Virus record (IMG/VR): IMGVR_UViG_3300042380_000159
Length of the DNA stretch: 64,000 nt
DNA from: an uncultured virus (IMG/VR IMGVR_UViG_3300042380_000159)
Lineage: Duplodnaviria > Heunggongvirae > Uroviricota > Caudoviricetes
Reading direction: 5' to 3' (one strand)
Shown: in pieces, positions 254 to 58,914 of the stretch
Position numbering within the stretch: position 1 is the stretch's first letter
How the letters are laid out: the number at the start of each line of letters is the position of its first letter
Program-made: the position numbers and the translations under genes
Notes under the pieces: model-generated
Database searches by the model: none
What the model saw: the letters and a program-made list of their open reading frames with translations, nothing else
What the model was told of the DNA's origin: nothing

Positions 254-317
254 CTGTCTACTGGCTCCTTTGAGGGTGGCGAAAATGTATTGACGGGTGA
301 ACTTCTGTCAAGCGGCA

Positions 318-335
318 TAGCGTCGGCGTTAGAAC
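318..335. promoter_or_regulatory. Putative operator TAGCGTCGGCGTTAGAAC (unit 0), copy 1
   Basis: Exact 18-bp repeat of 831-848; imperfect palindrome TARCGYC/GRCGYTA. Confidence 0.65.
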
Positions 336-339
336 AAAA

Positions 340-483
340 TCAAAAAAGAGACTTGGCGGCGGTCAGGATCATGTCAATGGCGTCGTGGACAAAGCGGGCC
401 AGCGGCGTGTCATGGCCGAGGTCTTGGCCAAGGCGAACCAGCACGAGCGACTCAAGAGCTCGATCCCAGTTGATGCGTTTCAT
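340..483 (-). CDS. Small protein (homolog of 37138-37281)
   Basis: MKRINWDRALESLVLVRLGQDLG vs MKPTWDNALHALVLIRIGQDLG; AAGGAGG SD. Confidence 0.75.
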   Translation of the reverse strand: MKRINWDRALESLVLVRLGQDLGHDTPLARFVHDAIDMILTAAKSLF

Positions 484-1141: not shown

Positions 1142-1314
1142 GCCCTTCAATACTAACGCCGTGGCAAGCGGTGTCAAAGGGGCGCGATCCGGTTGCCAGC
1201 ATCGCCTTTCCCGCCCGATAATCGGGCGGTGAACAAGGCATCCAGCGGAGGGCACTCCCGCTGAAGTTTTGTATACTAGTGACCGAAGGACCACGGAAAG
1301 CGAAAGGAAAGGCC

Positions 1315-2202
1315 ATGAAACTGCGAGAGTTCCTGCACGAAAGATATGCGATCCTCCACAATTTGAAAGCCCGCAGCGTCGAGCTCTACACGTTCTCGAT
1401 CGACCGCTTCGGCGACTTCCTCGAACGCGAGCCGGAACTGTCTGACTTAGAGGATCTGACGGTATCCAAGTTCCTGCGGTGGCGGGCGGTCACGCCACAC
1501 AAGGGCAAGATCGCACGCCCGGCATCCGTGGCAAAGGACAAGTGCCAGCTGCTCGGGCTGTGGAACGCAGCCGCACGCAAGCGGCTGGTGGAGCACTTCC
1601 CCGATCTGGCCCGCAATATCGTCCGCGTTCCCCACCGACCGCCCCAGGCGTACACGGTGGAAGAAATCAGCCGCATGGTGCGGGTGGCCAAGACCCGGCA
1701 GGGGATGGTCGGCCCGGTCCCGGCCGCGTGGGTTTGGCCGACGCTTTTGATGTCGTGCTACTTTACCGGGGAGCGCATCGGCAGCCACCTCGAAGTCCGC
1801 TGGCAGCAGATCGACTCCACCCGCCGCACGGTCACGTTTCTCTCGGAACACCGCAAGGGGCTCGGGCGCACGATTACGCGGGCGATCACGCCGCAACTGG
1901 TTCAGATGCTCGACGCGGCCCGTCGCGGTCCTGACGAGCTTGTATGGCCTTGGCTGGAACACCGCGAAATCGGCTCGCTGTGGCCACGGATTCGGGACAT
2001 ATGCCTGGCGGCAGGCGTAACGCCGAAGGGCTTCCACGCCATCCGCAAGGCGGCCGGTTCCTATGTCAAAGCTGCTGGCGGCGATGCCACGGAGTTCCTG
2101 ACGCACGCGGACGGGCGAACGACCAAGGACCACTACCTCGACCCGAAGATCGTGGGCGAGGCGTCGGCCTTGGATTTCCTGCCGCCGCTCGACATCAACT
2201 GA
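1315..2202 (+). CDS. int: Tyrosine recombinase/integrase
   Basis: TGERIG, FHAIRK, LTH and YLDP catalytic motifs; GAAAGGA SD. Confidence 0.92.
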   Translation: MKLREFLHERYAILHNLKARSVELYTFSIDRFGDFLEREPELSDLEDLTVSKFLRWRAVTPHKGKIARPASVAKDKCQLLGLWNAAARKRLVEHFPDLARNIVRVPHRPPQAYTVEEISRMVRVAKTRQGMVGPVPAAWVWPTLLMSCYFTGERIGSHLEVRWQQIDSTRRTVTFLSEHRKGLGRTITRAITPQLVQMLDAARRGPDELVWPWLEHREIGSLWPRIRDICLAAGVTPKGFHAIRKAAGSYVKAAGGDATEFLTHADGRTTKDHYLDPKIVGEASALDFLPPLDIN

Positions 2203-2203
2203 A

Positions 2204-2266
2204 CCGGGCTGACGGGGAGGCGGCAGGGAAAGGAAGGAAAACCTGCCGCCTCAACCCGCCGCCCGG
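2204..2266. other. Conserved hairpin with GAAAGGAAGGAAAA loop at the integrase/late-operon convergence
   Basis: Stem GAGGCGGCAGG/CCTGCCGCCTC; covarying copy at 38796-38863. Confidence 0.75.
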
Positions 2267-2267
2267 C

Positions 2268-2465
2268 TCATTGTTCCGCTGGCCGTGCGATGTTCTCGCG
2301 TGCCGCGATGATCGCCAGCAGCCGCTCGCGTTCCTCGAGCAGGCGGCCGATCATCCTGGCCGCCGTGCCGTTGGTCGCGGTCCACGAATTGGAAGGCCCG
2401 TGGCGTCCCACCCACAGCCACGCTTCCTGCGCCTCGTCTTCGCTGTACGGCACGCGGGGATTCAC
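2268..2465 (-). CDS. Conserved 65-aa protein
   Basis: Near-identical to 38863-39060. Confidence 0.8.
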   Translation of the reverse strand: MNPRVPYSEDEAQEAWLWVGRHGPSNSWTATNGTAARMIGRLLEERERLLAIIAARENIARPAEQ

Positions 2466-2812
2466 TCCATGCCCTCACGGTGGAGCACCAGGCTGATGAC
2501 GCTGTAGGCGGCGATGTCTTTCAACGTGTCTTCAATGCCGTCGAACTCCACCCGCCCGTTGTGGCAGAAGGCTTTCAGCCGCTGCATCTTGTCGGCCATG
2601 CGGATAAGGCATGCCTTCCAGGGTTCGATGTTGACCACCTCGGCCCCGTTGCGAATGTTCGCCAGGGCATCCTCGTCTTCACCGTAGTCAAGCGTCTTGG
2701 CCAAGTGAAGTTGCTTGATTTCGTCCAGCACCGCGAGAAACTCGCGCGAGCCGGGCCGCAGTCCCTCACGCATCACGCCATCACCATTGAGTCGGTCGGC
2801 CACGGTAATCAT
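2462..2812 (-). CDS. DUF1599-like (nucleotide-modification-associated) protein
   Basis: K..DYG...DALAN...RMADKMQRL...EDTLKDIAAY pattern. Confidence 0.7.
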   Translation of the reverse strand: MITVADRLNGDGVMREGLRPGSREFLAVLDEIKQLHLAKTLDYGEDEDALANIRNGAEVVNIEPWKACLIRMADKMQRLKAFCHNGRVEFDGIEDTLKDIAAYSVISLVLHREGME

Positions 2813-3984
2813 CCCTTTCTGTTCCCTTCGCTGACGTGCATTGATCGCAGCCCGCCATCGGGGCTGTAGAGAAATGTTTCGCATGCCTGTCTAGCACCGA
2901 GGAATCCGTTGGCTGAGTGCCAATCGTCAGGCGGGCAGATTGTTGGGGCCGTCCGCACGATCACGCCGTCGAGCGTGTCGAGCGGCTTGTTGTGATCGGC
3001 AGCCTGGTGGTGCAGATGCCCCGTGTGCCATTCGCGGTAGGTGCTGCGGCTCCACGCCTCGCGTTGCTCTAGGGCCATGATCTGCGGGAGCTTCCGCTTC
3101 GCCTTATGCCCGTGCGTAAACCCAAGCAGGTTGCGCCCGTGCGTGAGGTATTGCCGTGAGAGAAAGTCGGGCTTGATCGTCACCGCCTTCGAGCCACGGA
3201 ACCGCTCCACGAGGATCCGCTGAAAGGCCCACGTCAGCACCTCGTCGTGGTTGCCGTTCACGATCACCACGTCGGTGGGGGCCGAGGCCGCCGACCGCTC
3301 GACGATGCGGAGCAGCGAGTCGCAACCCACCTGAATCATCTTCTGCAATCGGCCGTCACGCTCCAGCGGCGTGCCTCCGGTTGTCGTGCCGCTCGGCGTG
3401 TCGTAGTGGAAGAGGTCGCCCAGGAACGCGATCGTGCGGCGGGTGGGCTTGTGGGCATCTCCCACCGCCACCAGTTCGGCCCCGGCTTTGCCCACGAGCT
3501 GCTCGGCCAGGTCTAGGTCGTAGTCGCTGCCGCCCGTGGTCTTGCTCCACGAGTACGCCCCGAAGTGCGTGTCGCTGATGACGAGCACCTGCCATAGCCC
3601 GTCTGCCTTGGGTGCCTTGACGGTTTTGGTCAAGGGCTTGCGGAGCGTCTTCTTCGCGGCGTCGATCATCGCCTCGACCACTTCGATGGTCGTCGGCCCG
3701 CCCTTGGGCTTGAGCCGCACAAAGACGCGGTGCAGTTCGATGGTGCCGCCGTCGCCGTCGCCGCACTCCCACTTGGTCGCCTCGCTGGCCGCGACCTCGA
3801 AGCGGGTCATGTCGGCCTCGATGTGGCGAAGCAGATCCTCCACCGTCTTGATGCGTCGGCTCGTCGAACGGGCCTCCAGCGAATCGCCGTCCTGCCGCTG
3901 GGTCACCTGCTCGGCATCGGCGGCAGGCTTCGCGGGCGGGAGCTTCGATGCCACGGAAGCCGCTAGCGTTTTCCGTTTAGCCAT
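2809..3984 (-). CDS. Calcineurin-like metallophosphoesterase
   Basis: SDTH, GD, GNHD, HGH, GHLH motifs. Confidence 0.88.
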   Translation of the reverse strand: MAKRKTLAASVASKLPPAKPAADAEQVTQRQDGDSLEARSTSRRIKTVEDLLRHIEADMTRFEVAASEATKWECGDGDGGTIELHRVFVRLKPKGGPTTIEVVEAMIDAAKKTLRKPLTKTVKAPKADGLWQVLVISDTHFGAYSWSKTTGGSDYDLDLAEQLVGKAGAELVAVGDAHKPTRRTIAFLGDLFHYDTPSGTTTGGTPLERDGRLQKMIQVGCDSLLRIVERSAASAPTDVVIVNGNHDEVLTWAFQRILVERFRGSKAVTIKPDFLSRQYLTHGRNLLGFTHGHKAKRKLPQIMALEQREAWSRSTYREWHTGHLHHQAADHNKPLDTLDGVIVRTAPTICPPDDWHSANGFLGARQACETFLYSPDGGLRSMHVSEGNRKG

Positions 3985-22672: not shown

Positions 22673-22696
22673 GCCTCACCTTCCTTTCGTGGCGTG

Positions 22697-22724
22697 ATTA
22701 TACCCCATCGGCAAGGCGGCGCAA
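22697..22724 (-). promoter_or_regulatory. Sigma70-like promoter TTGCGC-N16-TATAAT
   Basis: Conserved in unit 2 as TTGCGC-N16-TAGAAT (58852-58879). Confidence 0.75.
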
Positions 22725-22815
22725 TGCCTTTTCACGACCGCCTCTAAGGTGTATACGGTCGCGCCGAACTATCCGGAGATTCCGGATCGTTGCCGTATGT
22801 TGTGGGAAGAGCGCA

Positions 22816-27905: not shown

Positions 27906-28827
27906 CCTTGCGCCTGCCGACTTGTCGCATAGAAATCATGCCGTCGGCGATCTTAGCGGCATAAGCAAACCCAAAGAGCACTTGCCCAGGCACCTTGCTA
28001 CCCTTGGCGAGGTTGTCTTTTTTCCAAAGCGGCTGAAGGTTCGTGTAGTGGAACGCAGCAGCCTGCTGGTCTTTGTCGGAGAGGTCAAAAGCCGCCAATG
28101 GCACGATGTGATCTATATGCCATTCACCACGGTTCTCCCAAGACATTCCTGGCGCGAACTTTGATTCGAGGTGCGCCATCAGCTCGCTGGTCGTGCAGCC
28201 GACAAGCTTTAGAGTCCGATTTGATTTGCGAGCGTTTTGCCTTGAAAGTGCGACGCCAACCCGGCTCCTGATCGTGACGGCTGTCGCAAAGTGAGCGTCG
28301 CGCTTGCGCCGCAACGTCGAATAACACGCGCCGTGTTTTTGCACAAAGGCAGCCCTGTGTTTTCTTGATCTGCTGGCCGCTGACTCGCGGTACTTTTCAG
28401 GATCTTTTGAGACTCGCTTGCGAAAATATTCCTTTGCTGCCTGCTTGTTCTTGTCGCGGTATCTTTTCGATGACTCCTTTCTTTTTTCGGGGTGCCTTTC
28501 CCTGTATCGCCTGCTGTACAGTCGATCCATTTCCCTTTTCTTCTTCAGTTTCTTTGGGTCTGATGCGACCTTTGCTGCATATTTCTTTTGCGTTGCGCGG
28601 CCCTGCGGAGACTTGCTGCGACCCTTTATTTTCTCCTTGTTTGCTTCGTAGTACGCCTTGTCGCTTGCTTTCTTTGCTTCTTTATTTCGCTCGCGATACT
28701 CCTTGCATTGGGCAAGAATCCTGTCGCGGTTGGCTAGGTAGTACCTCCTGCCATACGAAAGCACTTTTTCGCCTTCCGCTCCTGCGCATGGTTGCGTTTG
28801 CTTACGCGGCCGCATAGAGTCAGCCAT
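27877..28827 (-). CDS. HNH homing-endonuclease-like protein
   Basis: Lys/Arg-rich repeats, WHIDHIVP...YTNLQPLW...N..KG; more AT-rich than flanks. Confidence 0.85.
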   Translation of the reverse strand: MADSMRPRKQTQPCAGAEGEKVLSYGRRYYLANRDRILAQCKEYRERNKEAKKASDKAYYEANKEKIKGRSKSPQGRATQKKYAAKVASDPKKLKKKREMDRLYSRRYRERHPEKRKESSKRYRDKNKQAAKEYFRKRVSKDPEKYRESAASRSRKHRAAFVQKHGACYSTLRRKRDAHFATAVTIRSRVGVALSRQNARKSNRTLKLVGCTTSELMAHLESKFAPGMSWENRGEWHIDHIVPLAAFDLSDKDQQAAAFHYTNLQPLWKKDNLAKGSKVPGQVLFGFAYAAKIADGMISMRQVGRRKDGTRQHGHD

Positions 28828-34752: not shown

Positions 34753-35574
34753 TTAAGTCAGGGCCGGTGTCCTCGGCGTGTTCTTCCGCAACTGGCTCCA
34801 ATCGCAATACGCCTGCTCAAACAACGCCGGGCTGCGGTGGCCAAGGTGCAGCCTCCCCGCGCCGGGTTTCTCCATTTCGCAATGCGTGGCACCTGAGCGG
34901 CGCAGCCACTTGGAACTGCCGCCGAGCCCCTGCTTGTCGAGCAGATCCCGCATCAGCCTGTGGGCTCGCCGCCGCTTGCAGGCCCAGCCGAGGATCAACC
35001 CGTTCGGGCTTTTCGCCAGCATCGCGTCGATGGCGTCCAAGCATGCGGGCGTGAGCGGCCTAGTGAGCGGGTCGCCCGTCTTGCTCTGAGTCCACGCGAG
35101 CGTGTCGCCGTCGATGTTGTCACGACTGAACGCCATGACATCGCCAAACCGGGCACCGCACTCGTAGGCCAGCAATATCCAGCACCGCAGGAACTGGCCG
35201 AGATCGGCCCCGCTGCGGAGCCGCTTGCCGTTGTAGTCGGCCGTGGCCTTCAGGAGTTGCTGAAGTTGGGCAACCGTCCACGCCTTCGTGGGTTTTTTGC
35301 GGGCCTTCACCGTCATCACGCCACGCGGGGCAACGTCCACAAGTTCGGCCTCGTAGGCGAACCGCCAGAGCGTCAAGAGGATCGTGCGTTCGGCACGCAC
35401 GGTGGTGCTCTGCAATTGCGATGAACGCACCCGCAGATAGCGATTCACGGCATCGCTGGATATTTCGCCGCACTTGGCCGCGATCCGCTTCACGTTCGCC
35501 GCGTAATGCACCGACACAATCCGCTCGGATAGGTAGCGTTCGGCCACCTGCTGAAAAGTCTTCTTGGCTTTCAT
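34753..35574 (-). CDS. Second, internal tyrosine recombinase of unit 1
   Basis: CGARFGD, SKTG, KWLRRS, LGH, Y. Confidence 0.85.
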   Translation of the reverse strand: MKAKKTFQQVAERYLSERIVSVHYAANVKRIAAKCGEISSDAVNRYLRVRSSQLQSTTVRAERTILLTLWRFAYEAELVDVAPRGVMTVKARKKPTKAWTVAQLQQLLKATADYNGKRLRSGADLGQFLRCWILLAYECGARFGDVMAFSRDNIDGDTLAWTQSKTGDPLTRPLTPACLDAIDAMLAKSPNGLILGWACKRRRAHRLMRDLLDKQGLGGSSKWLRRSGATHCEMEKPGAGRLHLGHRSPALFEQAYCDWSQLRKNTPRTPALT

Positions 35575-37081: not shown

Positions 37082-37097
37082 TTCAGTCTCCCTTTTG

Positions 37098-37141
37098 TTC
37101 CAAGTTCGGTAGTTCTGTACCAAAGTCGGTAGTTCGGTCAA
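37098..37141 (-). promoter_or_regulatory. Tandem operator sites CTACCG-N4-TGG(T/A)AC with overlapping promoter
   Basis: GAACTACCGA twice on the - strand; TTGACC-N16-TACAGA. Confidence 0.6.
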
Positions 37142-37281
37142 CGGCAAAATAATCCGATCACCGAAACCGCCAACTCAATCGCGTCGTGGACGGCCTTCGA
37201 TGCCGGGGAGTACGTTCCCAGGTCCTGGCCGATGCGGATCAGCACGAGAGCGTGCAGAGCGTTGTCCCAAGTCGGTTTCAC
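37138..37281 (-). CDS. 47-aa protein (homolog of 340-483, not in ORF track)
   Basis: Hand translation; GAAAGGAG SD, GTG start. Confidence 0.7.
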   Translation of the reverse strand: MKPTWDNALHALVLIRIGQDLGTYSPASKAVHDAIELAVSVIGLFCR

Positions 37282-37303
37282 AATGACTCCTTTCATGTGG
37301 GGG

Positions 37304-37331
37304 ATACTACCAAGTTCGGTAGTTCCGTCAA
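37304..37331 (-). promoter_or_regulatory. Early promoter TTGACG-N16-TAGTAT containing operator CTACCGAACTTGGTAG
   Basis: Read directly on the - strand. Confidence 0.7.
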
Positions 37332-37371
37332 CACGAATTCAGAAAAAATCTTTTCCGGCGTTTCACCCGTG

Positions 37372-37861: not shown

Positions 37862-38752
37862 ATGATGCTGTCAGAGCTTTTTTCCCGCGAATATGCCCCT
37901 CTTCGACGCCTTGGGCAGAAGAGCATCAACTGCTACATGGTCAGCCTGCGGCACTTCGACAGACACTTGGGCGAGTCGGCACGGTTGGACCATTTGACGG
38001 ACTTGACGGTTGCCCGGTTCCTTGCCGCCCGTGAGCGGGAAACCTGCCGGGCCACGGCGGCGCGCGATCGCGTGCAGCTGCTGGCCCTCTGGCGGTATGC
38101 CGCCCGGAAGCGGATGAAGGCCAGTGATGGCACCCTGCTCGACTTCCCCGAGGTGCCGATCATGCGAGCCCCGGCCCGCGTCCCGGTGGCCTACACGTCG
38201 GAAGACGTGGCCCTGCTGATCCGCGAGGCCAGGAGGTTCACCGGCACCGTGGCCGGGATTCCCGAGGCCGATTGGTGGTCAAGTTTGTTGCTTTGCCTGT
38301 GGGAGTCGGGCGAACGGATCAACGCCGTTATGCACACCAAGTGGCGGGAAATCGACACGGCAGGCCGCCGCATCACTTTCCGGGCTGAAACCCGCAAGAA
38401 CCAGACACGCGACCTAGACCGTCAGATTTCGCCTACGCTGGCCGCTTGGCTGTCTGGGCGCATCCAGAGCCAGAATGCCCTCGTGTGGCCCTGGGACCGC
38501 AACGCATGCCTTCTGTGGAAGCGTATGCAGGGGATCGCCAGCCGCGCCCGCGTCCAGTATCGTGGCTTCCACGGGATTCGCCGTGCCGCCGTGTCGTATG
38601 CGGAGGCAGCGTGCCCAGGAGCAGGCCAGAAACTGGCGGACCACTCGAGCCCAGCGATCACCCAGAAGAGCTACCTCGATCCACGGATTGTGCCGCAAGG
38701 TCCATCCGCACCGGATCTGCTGCCGAAACTGGATTTGACGCCGCCGACGTAA
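37862..38752 (+). CDS. int: Tyrosine recombinase/integrase
   Basis: SGERIN, FHGIRR, ADH, YLDP; diverged homolog of 1315-2202. Confidence 0.92.
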   Translation: MMLSELFSREYAPLRRLGQKSINCYMVSLRHFDRHLGESARLDHLTDLTVARFLAARERETCRATAARDRVQLLALWRYAARKRMKASDGTLLDFPEVPIMRAPARVPVAYTSEDVALLIREARRFTGTVAGIPEADWWSSLLLCLWESGERINAVMHTKWREIDTAGRRITFRAETRKNQTRDLDRQISPTLAAWLSGRIQSQNALVWPWDRNACLLWKRMQGIASRARVQYRGFHGIRRAAVSYAEAACPGAGQKLADHSSPAITQKSYLDPRIVPQGPSAPDLLPKLDLTPPT

Positions 38753-38795
38753 AGCCTCCTCCGCGTTGGTCTATGACCTGCGCGGAATAACCGGA

Positions 38796-38863
38796 AGCCG
38801 GGCAAGCGGGGAGATGTTGAGGAAAGGAAGGAAAACTCAACACCTACAACCCGCCGCCCGGCT
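38796..38863. other. Conserved hairpin with GAAAGGAAGGAAAA loop
   Basis: Inner stem TGTTGAG/CTCAACA, outer stem AGCCGGGC/GCCCGGCT. Confidence 0.75.
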
Positions 38864-39060
38864 CATTGTTCCGCTGGTCGCTGGATGTTCTCGCGTGCCG
38901 CCAGCATCGCCAGCAGCCGCTCACGCTCTTCGAGCAGGCGGCCGATCATGCGTGCCGCCGTGCCGTTCGTGGCCGTCCACGAATTGGAAGGCCCGTGGCG
39001 GCCCACCCACAGCCACGCTTCCTGGGCCTCGTCTTCGGTGTAGGGCACGCGGGGATTCAC
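38863..39060 (-). CDS. Conserved 65-aa protein
   Basis: Ortholog of 2268-2465. Confidence 0.8.
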   Translation of the reverse strand: MNPRVPYTEDEAQEAWLWVGRHGPSNSWTATNGTAARMIGRLLEERERLLAMLAARENIQRPAEQ

Positions 39061-39404
39061 TCCACGCTCTCCCGATACAGCACCAGGGCAATGATCGAAT
39101 ACGCCGCGAGGTCGAGCAGCGTGTCCTCCACGCCGTCGAATTCCACCTCGCCCCGGCGAAAGAACGACCGCAGCCTGTGCATCTTGTCGCTCATGCGGAG
39201 CACGCAGCCCGCGTAGGCGGGCACGTTGATCACGTCGGCCGAGTTGCGAATGTTGCTCAGGGCATCATCGTCCTGCCCATAGTCTTTTGTCTTCCTCAAG
39301 TGGAGCGTGCGGATCTCGTCGAGGATGTCGAGGAACTCGCGCGAGCCCGGCCGCAATCCCTCACGCATCACGCCATCGCCATTGAGTCGGTCGGCCACAA
39401 TCAT
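39057..39404 (-). CDS. DUF1599-like protein
   Basis: Ortholog of 2462-2812. Confidence 0.7.
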   Translation of the reverse strand: MIVADRLNGDGVMREGLRPGSREFLDILDEIRTLHLRKTKDYGQDDDALSNIRNSADVINVPAYAGCVLRMSDKMHRLRSFFRRGEVEFDGVEDTLLDLAAYSIIALVLYRESVE

Positions 39405-40477
39405 TCCTTTCCCTTTCGCAGATCACGGTCGCAGTAGATCGGCATGGCCTTCGTCACTTCGTTTCGCCCGTGGTCGATGACGATGGCCGCCTGGCATGGC
39501 GGCTCGTAGGCCGCCTTGATCCGCGTAGCGTATGCCGAGTGTCCAATCACGCTCCCGTTCGCCACATAGCGACCGGCTCGCAGCCATTGGAACTGGTGCC
39601 AGTGGCCGAAGCAGGTGAGATCGGCCCGCTCGATCGCATCCCACGCACTGATCGCCTTGTTCGTCGGGACCGTGATGCCGCCCACGCCGCCGCCGTACTT
39701 GATCGCGTGGCCGTGGTGGAAGCGGATGCGGAAGCCGTCGAGGTCCACATAGTTCAAGTAGCCGGTGCCCACCTGCCAGCGGACGTTCTTCTGCGGCTCG
39801 GCAGCGGCCATCGTCAGGTAAAGATTCTGCTCGAAGGAGTGCTCCATCTCGGTGCCGATGCGGAGCTTCTCCGTGCTGCGGCCGTGGTTGCCGCTGTTCG
39901 TCGCCACGACCACTTCGCTGGCGTTGCCCGCCACCTCGTCAATGAAGTTCCGCAGGATGCCGCCGATGAACCGGCACGCCGCGAGCGGGGCCAGTTGTGC
40001 CATCTCGGCCGTATCGGGGTGAATGTGGCCAGACAGAAGATCCCCGCCGAGCCAGACCACCACGCGGTCGATGCGGGCCAGCTGCCGCTCGTGCTCCAGC
40101 AGGACGGCGAACCGCTCCAGCAGTTCGGCCATGCGTTGCTCGCACACTTCGAGGTCGTATGAGTTCAGCCCGTTGACCGTCTCGGGATCGACACGCTCTT
40201 CGCAGTGGATGTCGGAGAGCAGCACGACCATCGTGGCCGGGTGCTTCTTGCCCTTGACACTTTTGGTCAAGGCCCGCTTCGTGGGCTTGATCCCAGCCAG
40301 GCCCGCGATCGCATCAGCCCGCTCGCGCTCCTTGTCGATCTGGGCGAGCGCCGCCTTATACCGGTTCCGGTATGAAGCCACCTCGGCCCGCAGCCGCGCC
40401 AGTTCGGCGTCGGCCGCCAGCTGCGAGGCGTGCTCCATCCCGGCCACGATCTCGTCGGCTACTTTTCGTCGAGCCAT
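39401..40477 (-). CDS. Calcineurin-like metallophosphoesterase with N-terminal coiled coil
   Basis: SDIH, GGD, GNHG, HGH, GHWH. Confidence 0.88.
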   Translation of the reverse strand: MARRKVADEIVAGMEHASQLAADAELARLRAEVASYRNRYKAALAQIDKERERADAIAGLAGIKPTKRALTKSVKGKKHPATMVVLLSDIHCEERVDPETVNGLNSYDLEVCEQRMAELLERFAVLLEHERQLARIDRVVVWLGGDLLSGHIHPDTAEMAQLAPLAACRFIGGILRNFIDEVAGNASEVVVATNSGNHGRSTEKLRIGTEMEHSFEQNLYLTMAAAEPQKNVRWQVGTGYLNYVDLDGFRIRFHHGHAIKYGGGVGGITVPTNKAISAWDAIERADLTCFGHWHQFQWLRAGRYVANGSVIGHSAYATRIKAAYEPPCQAAIVIDHGRNEVTKAMPIYCDRDLRKGKE

Positions 40478-58826: not shown

Positions 58827-58914
58827 GAGATCACCTTCCTTTCGGGGCGTGATTCTACCCGGCTGGCAAGCGGGCGCAATGCCTTTTCCGACCGTCTCTA
58901 AGGTGGATAGCGCA

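What the first reader, a model, noticed from the sequence alone, without database searches (positions are those of the whole stretch)
2204..2266. Covarying hairpin with an invariant SD-like loop downstream of both integrases
Seen: the loop GAAAGGAAGGAAAA is identical at 2228-2241 and 38822-38835, but the closing stems differ completely and still pair (GAGGCGGCAGG/CCTGCCGCCTC vs TGTTGAG/CTCAACA), inside a shared CCGGGC/GCCCGG outer stem. It lies where integrase and late transcripts converge. On the - strand the loop reads TTTTCCTTCCTTTC, complementary to the phage's own GAAAGGAAGG SD sites (22679-22688, 58834-58843). On the + strand it shows two GGA motifs, as in CsrA/RsmA sites. Inference: a structured RNA (antisense/anti-SD, CsrA decoy or retroregulator) or a folded-DNA recombination site.
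Basis: partly seen in the sequence, partly recalled or inferred. Interest (0 to 1): 0.7.

Follow-up and report, generated by a model that had tools for sequence, protein, structure and literature searches.

The report
Phage RNA hairpin with anti-Shine-Dalgarno loop
In a large group of uncultured temperate phages, a conserved RNA hairpin fills the gap where two opposing transcripts meet, and its open loop always carries the complement of the phages' ribosome-binding signal, which suggests an undescribed way of ending transcripts and tuning translation.

Summary
The feature is real. The window holds related HK97-type temperate phages in register, and the two hairpins (2200-2270, 38795-38865) are orthologues, one per phage unit. 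I collected 109 distinct versions; 49 of 50 virus records carry one copy. The ~26-pair stem covaries strongly (22 of 26 pairs with two-sided changes) and prefers the window's minus strand (outer stem G-U 99 versus A-C 7). The 8-15 nt loop keeps CCUU in 109 of 109 and CCUUUC in 94, the complement of the phages' own Shine-Dalgarno (GAAAGG[G]A). The element usually runs from the stop codon of the last tail-side gene to that of the integrase-side gene, whichever genes these are, and has no U tract. No Rfam family matches. Best reading: a 3'-boundary RNA hairpin between convergent transcripts whose loop acts as an exposed anti-SD; the rival is that the plus-strand SD face binds 30S or CsrA. A specific target is not shown: loop-SD covariation vanished after collapsing relatives. 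An att site is unlikely. Host, expression and function are untested. Verdict: new variant of known kinds.

The parts
2200..2270 (-). Hairpin, copy A: about 27 pairs with a 2-nt and a 1-nt bulge, closed by the paired stop codons of the two convergent genes
2228..2241 (-). Loop of copy A; anti-SD core on minus strand, SD-type core on plus strand; predicted unpaired at p about 1 in 750 nt of context
2217..2252 (.). Inner 11-pair stem (2217-2227 with 2242-2252) and loop; can fold on either strand
1315..2202 (+). Tyrosine integrase A, 295 aa, catalytic R154 K181 H241 R244 H264 Y274 invariant in 4 aligned rows; stop codon is the base of the hairpin
1193..1222 (+). Sigma70-type promoter match upstream of integrase A (consensus match only)
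2268..2465 (-). 65-aa phage protein of no known family, last tail-side gene; its stop is nt 1-3 of the hairpin
2462..2819 (-). DUF1599-like gene with its SD at 2812-2819, about 550 nt upstream of the hairpin; nearest candidate cis target (not shown to pair)
   Evidence: (weak Pfam hit on the B copy only, below cut-off)
38795..38865 (-). Hairpin, copy B (loop 38822-38835)
37862..38752 (+). Tyrosine integrase B, 296 aa, 39% identical to A; stop 42 nt before the hairpin
38863..39060 (-). 65-aa last tail-side gene, copy B
39057..39417 (-). DUF1599-like gene, copy B, with SD region 39405-39417
22679..22688 (-). SD of a promoter-bearing cassette; 10-nt match to the loop, probably only because both are SD-type
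58834..58843 (-). Same cassette SD in phage B, in front of an unrelated ORF

Best explanation
A cis-encoded RNA hairpin that forms the shared 3' boundary of two convergent phage transcripts (tail-side genes on the minus strand; integrase and inserted extra genes on the plus strand). Shown: conserved structure, position, strand bias and loop core. Inferred step 1 (about 0.75): the hairpin pauses RNA polymerase from either side and protects the 3' ends, working like the U-tract-less bidirectional terminators between convergent E. coli genes. Inferred step 2 (about 0.4 given step 1's RNA nature, my leading choice among loop roles): the minus-strand copy, which folds completely, holds a 16S-tail-like anti-SD in an open loop and pairs with GAAAGG-type ribosome-binding sites, in cis a few hundred bases upstream or in trans, lowering translation and speeding decay of phage mRNA.
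For: Structure: 95.2% of 1805 cells paired, 22 of 26 pairs with two-sided change, covariation 0.485 versus 0.143 shuffled, 0 of 500 on all five measures (model-fitted alignment). On a sequence-only alignment of 41 rows, cells paired, two-sided cells and score were 0 of 500. Strand: strand-neutral count G-U 129 versus A-C 31 in 72 sequences; outer stem 99 versus 7 in 81 distinct stems. Position: the tail-side stop is nt 1-3 in 74 of 113 rows and an integrase-side stop ends within the first 7 nt in 63 of 113, with several unrelated flanking genes; extra genes are inserted on the integrase side of it; the 65-aa gene in a non-convergent context has no hairpin (L083, L088). Loop: CCUU 109 of 109, CCUUUC 94 of 109, inner-stem columns 0.2-0.6 bits. 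GAAAGGA is a real SD here: 118 of 173 tail-sense occurrences precede an ATG ORF, against 19 of 307 and 3 of 114 for two control words. CCTTTC is under-represented elsewhere on that strand (observed/expected 0.61, rank 408 of 4096). Precedent: distal anti-SD sequences repress translation and promote decay in B. subtilis (PMC12697547, Results read in part); icaR 3'UTR (PMC3868564 abstract); bidirectional terminators (10.1101/2022.10.23.513370 passages).
Against: No target shown. Naive loop-SD covariation (p<0.0002; 22 of 30 versus 14 of 39, p=0.003) also appeared for unlinked genes and vanished when relatives were collapsed (median p 0.45-0.58; independent pairs not significant). The commonest loop variant (A to G on the plus strand, 29 of 79) is tolerated if the plus-strand face pairs with a U-rich 16S tail but weakens an anti-SD against GAAAGGA. 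The inner stem is only weakly strand-biased (45 versus 27, p=0.04 uncorrected). On the sequence-only alignment, pairs with two-sided change were not above shuffles (92 of 500; types 10 of 500). G-U counts are cells, not independent events, and a folded ssDNA would show a similar bias. Close relatives lack it: 29 of 74 integrase-anchored loci had no model hit, including L122/L123 where the convergent genes abut. No strand-specific RNA data. Detection of relatives partly required an AAGG-like loop.
Confidence: 0.45

Rival explanations
1. Same boundary hairpin, but the working face of the loop is on the plus (integrase) strand: a start-less SD about 30 nt behind the stop codon that binds the 16S tail or 30S subunit and stabilises or marks the integrase mRNA end.
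For: Loop octamers mirror the phages' SD octamers (GAAAGGGA/AA/AC/AT/AG 11/7/8/7/4 in 48 loops; 45/42/38/27/14 in 291 SDs). Variants are mostly A to G, which G-U pairing with the 16S tail allows. A start codon follows in only 5 of 78. CCUCCUUUC is a listed antiSD in some classes (PMC10783764 Table 1 passage).
Against: The full stem folds better on the minus strand (57 of 72; 99 versus 7). The known start-less SD (STAB-SD; recalled, only its title seen) acts at 5' ends. Host 16S tail unknown.
Confidence: 0.25
2. A sib-like retroregulator: the long bulged stem is an RNase III site; when transcripts run through it, cleavage triggers decay of integrase mRNA (or the overlapping 3' ends anneal and are cut).
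For: Lies directly behind int, as lambda sib does (recalled). Median 26 pairs with a conserved bulge about 11 pairs from the loop. No U tract on either side.
Against: The fold is better on the non-integrase strand. It does not explain an invariant loop core. In several phages 0.3-1 kb of other genes lie between int and hairpin.
Confidence: 0.15
3. A CsrA/RsmA binding site on the plus strand.
For: ANGGA in the loop region of 74 of 79 protein-anchored sequences.
Against: One hairpin per genome; two GGA in 17 of 109; 5 of 79 lack ANGGA; no CsrA gene in 50 records; CsrA sites are SD-like, so the motif does not discriminate (recalled). Host CsrA not testable.
Confidence: 0.08
4. A folded-DNA attachment site for the integrase.
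For: attP often follows int (recalled). The integrase is short and XerC/D-like. More distant integrase relatives also have long inverted repeats behind the stop, and four such records end about 150 nt later. ssDNA and RNA motifs are hard to tell apart computationally (PMC5737381 passage).
Against: Integrases identical over the full protein sit beside different hairpin alleles (L001, L002) and one allele sits beside integrases 38-43% identical to A (L020, L031, L062, L065). L122/L123 (69% identical) leave no room. No half site or host junction was seen: 41 of 42 model-positive metagenome loci and 65 of 65 hairpin-positive viral loci lie beside these phages' genes, though junction contigs may simply be unsampled.
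Confidence: 0.07

Closest known systems
U-tract-less bidirectional terminators between convergent genes (Ju 2019; Wang 2022, 10.1101/2022.10.23.513370; passages seen)
   Same: Hairpin between convergent genes, no intrinsic-terminator signature, can fold on both strands.
   Different: Here the 8-15 nt loop has a conserved SD/anti-SD core and the stem is bounded by the stop codons; no transcript ends measured.
Staphylococcus aureus icaR 3'UTR anti-SD (PMC3868564 abstract) and distal aSD effects (PMC12697547 abstract and Results part 1); hok fold-back (PMC5502269 passage)
   Same: Pyrimidine motif behind a stop codon, complementary to the SD.
   Different: Phage, polycistronic context, motif held in the loop of a long covarying hairpin; no specific partner shown.
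Lambda sib retroregulator (recalled; search returned 0 papers)
   Same: Long stem downstream of int, facing tail-side genes.
   Different: Folds best on the opposite strand, has a conserved loop core, abuts both stop codons.
CsrB/RsmZ-type sites (recalled)
   Same: A(N)GGA in a loop on the plus strand.
   Different: Single hairpin, long stem, no array.
Integron attC and other folded-DNA sites (PMC5737381 passage; details recalled)
   Same: Imperfect palindrome with conserved bulges near a tyrosine recombinase.
   Different: Single copy, conserved loop, no link between hairpin allele and integrase clade.

Membership tests
Any Rfam 15 family | Score at or above gathering threshold | tested here: not met
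   0 hits in the window; none at the element in 8 relatives at E<=10; only generic miRNA-hairpin scores of 15-26 bits against cut-offs of 60-197
Intrinsic (Rho-independent) terminator | U tract after the stem | tested here: not met
   At most 5 U in 8 nt; 5 U in 2 (minus) and 3 (plus) of 108; not called
Intrinsic (Rho-independent) terminator | Short variable loop | tested here: not met
   Loop 8-15 nt with conserved core
Bidirectional collision-type terminator | Hairpin between convergent genes | tested here: met
Bidirectional collision-type terminator | Overlapping 3' ends of both transcripts at the hairpin | not testable with these tools
   Only contigs were available
icaR-type 3'UTR anti-SD | Motif complementary to an SD, behind the stop codon | tested here: met
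icaR-type 3'UTR anti-SD | Pairing with a particular SD of the same mRNA | tested here: inconclusive
   Naive covariation lost after collapsing relatives
CsrA-sequestering RNA | Several GGA hairpins in one RNA | tested here: not met
   One copy per record; two GGA in 17 of 109
CsrA-sequestering RNA | ANGGA in a loop | tested here: met
   74 of 79, not separable from an SD
sib-type retroregulator | Downstream of int | tested here: met
sib-type retroregulator | RNase III cleavage on read-through | not testable with these tools
   needs experiment
att / attC recombination site | Site specific to its integrase | tested here: not met
   Alleles and integrase clades shuffled
att / attC recombination site | Split between attL and attR in a prophage | tested here: inconclusive
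   No junction seen, no prophage with host flank found
att / attC recombination site | Integron integrase and cassette array | tested here: not met
   NCBIfam gave only weak XerC/D/XerA-type hits; single copy. R-box motif not tested.

The most novel reading that the evidence does not exclude
The phages make, as the 3' end of the tail-side transcript or as a small RNA cut from it, a stable mimic of the 16S rRNA tail that pairs with GAAAGG-type ribosome-binding sites in general, so one short RNA damps translation of many phage or host mRNAs (integrase included) at a stage of the cycle, while its complement on the integrase mRNA shows a start-less SD: a two-faced SD/anti-SD switch at a transcript collision point.
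Probability: 0.2. Interest if true: 0.85.

Novelty: new variant of a known kind. Interest (0 to 1): 0.57.

Why it matters
It is a well-covarying, single-copy phage RNA motif absent from Rfam, with over 100 natural variants and a simple assay. Anti-SD sequences are normally avoided in mRNA, so an exposed one kept across a diverse phage group points to deliberate 3'-end control of translation, known from very few cases. If the loop is inert, it is still a useful example of U-tract-less transcript boundaries and a marker of module exchange in an uncultured phage group.

Tried and rejected
Host: no window genome held; GTDB scan gave one 3.3-kb contig in a MAG labelled Proteobacteria, with one model hit, which looks like binned phage DNA; no integrase match in annotated phages or plasmids; clamp homologues unnamed or distant; last-gene protein of L151 no hit. 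Planctomycetota is a recalled guess from a protein motif and comes from no call. Specific target: tests looked positive and were rejected. One clade (L125, L154, L165, L167, L175) has a 9-11 nt loop match about 400 nt upstream and two of its records a 10-nt match to the clamp SD; single clade, one loop sequence, so no covariation evidence. Expression: three runs with small word shares; two RNA runs of one study gave contigs over the tail-side genes and one contig carrying a B-type hairpin and running on for 255 or more letters; contigs show no strand, end or level and may include DNA, so no weight is given. Phage CsrA: 0 of 50 records. The 'starts with stop' count used a wrong register and is ignored; the 'TCC in loop' count includes the stem junction and is not used. 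Junction between the phages in the window not located. Literature searches found no description; the library lacks most subscription papers, and the supplement of PMC5737381, which describes 224 motifs, could not be read, so an earlier listing outside Rfam is not excluded. Earlier scan findings: none.

Full report
Setting. The window is a run of related HK97-type temperate phage genomes in register: self-comparison gives homologous blocks offset by 36-38.7 kb, with capsid, portal and terminase twice and two tyrosine integrases, 39% identical. No whole genome is held. The two hairpins are therefore orthologues. The host was not identified.

Observation. All coordinates check out. The element is 2200-2270 and 38795-38865. 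Both fold far better than shuffles on either strand, and better on the minus strand (-53.5 versus -47.2 and -41.0 versus -35.6 kcal/mol). The two inner stems differ at 6 of 11 pairs, 5 of them on both sides.

Relatives. Using the 65-aa last tail-side gene as bait, 60 of 64 loci had the hairpin; 2 were truncated and 2 lacked both hairpin and integrase (the detector needed an AAGG-like loop). Using integrases as bait, the model hit 19 of 19 close loci and 45 of 74 of the 80 broader loci that I gave it; one further locus was hit through its record and the last five were checked without the model only. In whole records 49 of 50 had a match, at one place each apart from three weak extra hits of 17-24 bits. 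Pattern scans gave 80 fetched metagenome loci of at least 120, 42 model-positive, 41 of these beside the same phage genes, and 68 viral loci, 65 with the hairpin, 63 of them with the integrase. No host-like context appeared.

Structure. On the model-fitted alignment of 72 distinct sequences (72 loci chosen from those with hits; window-A-like rows left out to avoid wrong-strand hits), 95.2% of cells pair, 22 of 26 pairs show two-sided changes and all five measures beat 500 of 500 shuffles; slid controls collapse. On a sequence-only alignment of 41 rows three measures gave 0 of 500, but pair counts gave 92 and 10 of 500. A strand-neutral count favours the minus strand: G-U 129 versus A-C 31; outer stem 99 versus 7, inner stem 45 versus 27 in 109 distinct sequences. 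So the whole stem is selected on the tail-side strand and the inner stem can form on both. These are cell counts among relatives, and RNA versus single-stranded DNA cannot be told from them.

Position. The tail-side stop codon is nt 1-3 in 74 of 113 rows (in 17 more the gene runs 19-22 nt into the stem; the script picked the longest ORF, so some rows are wrong frames), and an integrase-side stop ends within the first 7 nt in 63 of 113. The flanking genes change: at least four unrelated last genes and many integrase types or inserted genes. Integrase B relatives L014 and L018 carry the hairpin type of a different tail-side module. There is no U tract on either side. Some relatives lack the element, with the convergent genes abutting (L122, L123), so it is dispensable in the wider family.

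Loop. Length 8-15 nt; CCUU in 109 of 109, CCUUU in 104, CCUUUC in 94 (34 of the 109 came from a pattern that required the core; among the 79 protein-anchored ones AAGG is in all and the flanking positions are given). On the plus strand this reads GAAAGG(G)A, which is the phages' SD: 118 of 173 and 45 of 61 tail-sense occurrences precede an ATG ORF, against 3-6% for control words, and the octamer spectra of loops and SDs are alike. No start codon follows the loop in 73 of 78. The hexamer CCTTTC is modestly depleted elsewhere on the tail-side strand (0.61), and the loop is predicted open in context (the program cannot model loop pairing to a distant site).

Target. I tested whether loop variants track an SD. 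Naive tests were positive for the region 100-900 nt upstream, for the DUF1599-like gene and also for clamp, RecT and integrase SDs. With one record per cluster of relatives the signal was nil (25 or 16 clusters, median p 0.45-0.58), and independent pairs on clamp and integrase trees were not significant (1.0 versus 1.2; 3.4 versus 0.2).

Mechanism. Inference: a hairpin between convergent genes without a U tract fits pausing and collision-type termination (10.1101/2022.10.23.513370, passages) and 3'-end protection. That does not need a conserved loop, so the loop has a fixed partner. The complete fold on the minus strand, and experiments showing that anti-SD sequences act over hundreds of bases (PMC12697547, abstract and first part of Results; icaR, PMC3868564 abstract; PMC5502269 passages), make the anti-SD face my first choice. 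The A-to-G variation argues for the SD face binding the 16S tail (PMC10783764 Table 1 passage), a close second. RNase III retroregulation, CsrA binding and an att site follow; sib, CsrA-site and attP features are recalled.

Novelty. No Rfam match. Passages of PMC2864571, PMC5737381, PMC12197685, PMC5397173 and PMC7509114 describe nothing like it; searches found no description; the PMC5737381 supplement was unreadable. I file it as a new variant of known kinds: an undescribed phage RNA motif combining a convergent-gene boundary hairpin with an SD/anti-SD loop. Interest 0.57.

Noticed in passing
window 1-64000: Related phage genomes follow each other in register with a period of about 36.5 kb; tandem prophages, a chimeric assembly or joined records cannot be told apart, and the junction was not located.
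   Followed up: partly
window 34753-35574 (-): A second tyrosine-recombinase-like gene (273 aa) in the early region.
   Followed up: no
window 22676-22755 and 58831-58909 (-): Conserved promoter-plus-SD cassette in front of unrelated ORFs in the two phages, like a moron; the B copy lies in a stretch 99.9% identical to record piece L208.
   Followed up: partly
L158, L159, L161, L168, L170, L172, L173, just behind the integrase stop: A different long inverted repeat behind related integrases (44-48% identical); four of these records end about 150 nt after the stop. Candidate att site or another boundary element.
   Followed up: no
L128, L129, L131, L132, L174, L177-L180 and L163, behind the integrase stop: Two further unrelated long hairpins, the first followed by a short U run.
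   Followed up: no
L008/L039 and L040; window about 28000-28700 (-): HNH-like ORF inserted between integrase and hairpin, similar to an ORF in the window's early region (HNH label recalled from the motif).
   Followed up: no
L167 3005-3040 (-) and L125, L154, L165, L175: Leader of the last gene has a 9-11 nt match to the loop, overlapping a small hairpin that holds an SD-like word; pairing with the loop could open it.
   Followed up: partly
window 284-345, 827-854, 1150-1222; 37090-37340: Divergent promoter matches and repeated operator-like words around an excisionase-like gene (902-1144, weak PHROG hit) and the integrase.
   Followed up: no
48 related records: Strong avoidance of several palindromic hexamers (observed/expected 0.06-0.15), typical of restriction avoidance.
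   Followed up: no
window 38757-38786: Small extra stem-loop seen by eye in the 42-nt spacer behind integrase B; the spacer recurs in its relatives.
   Followed up: no
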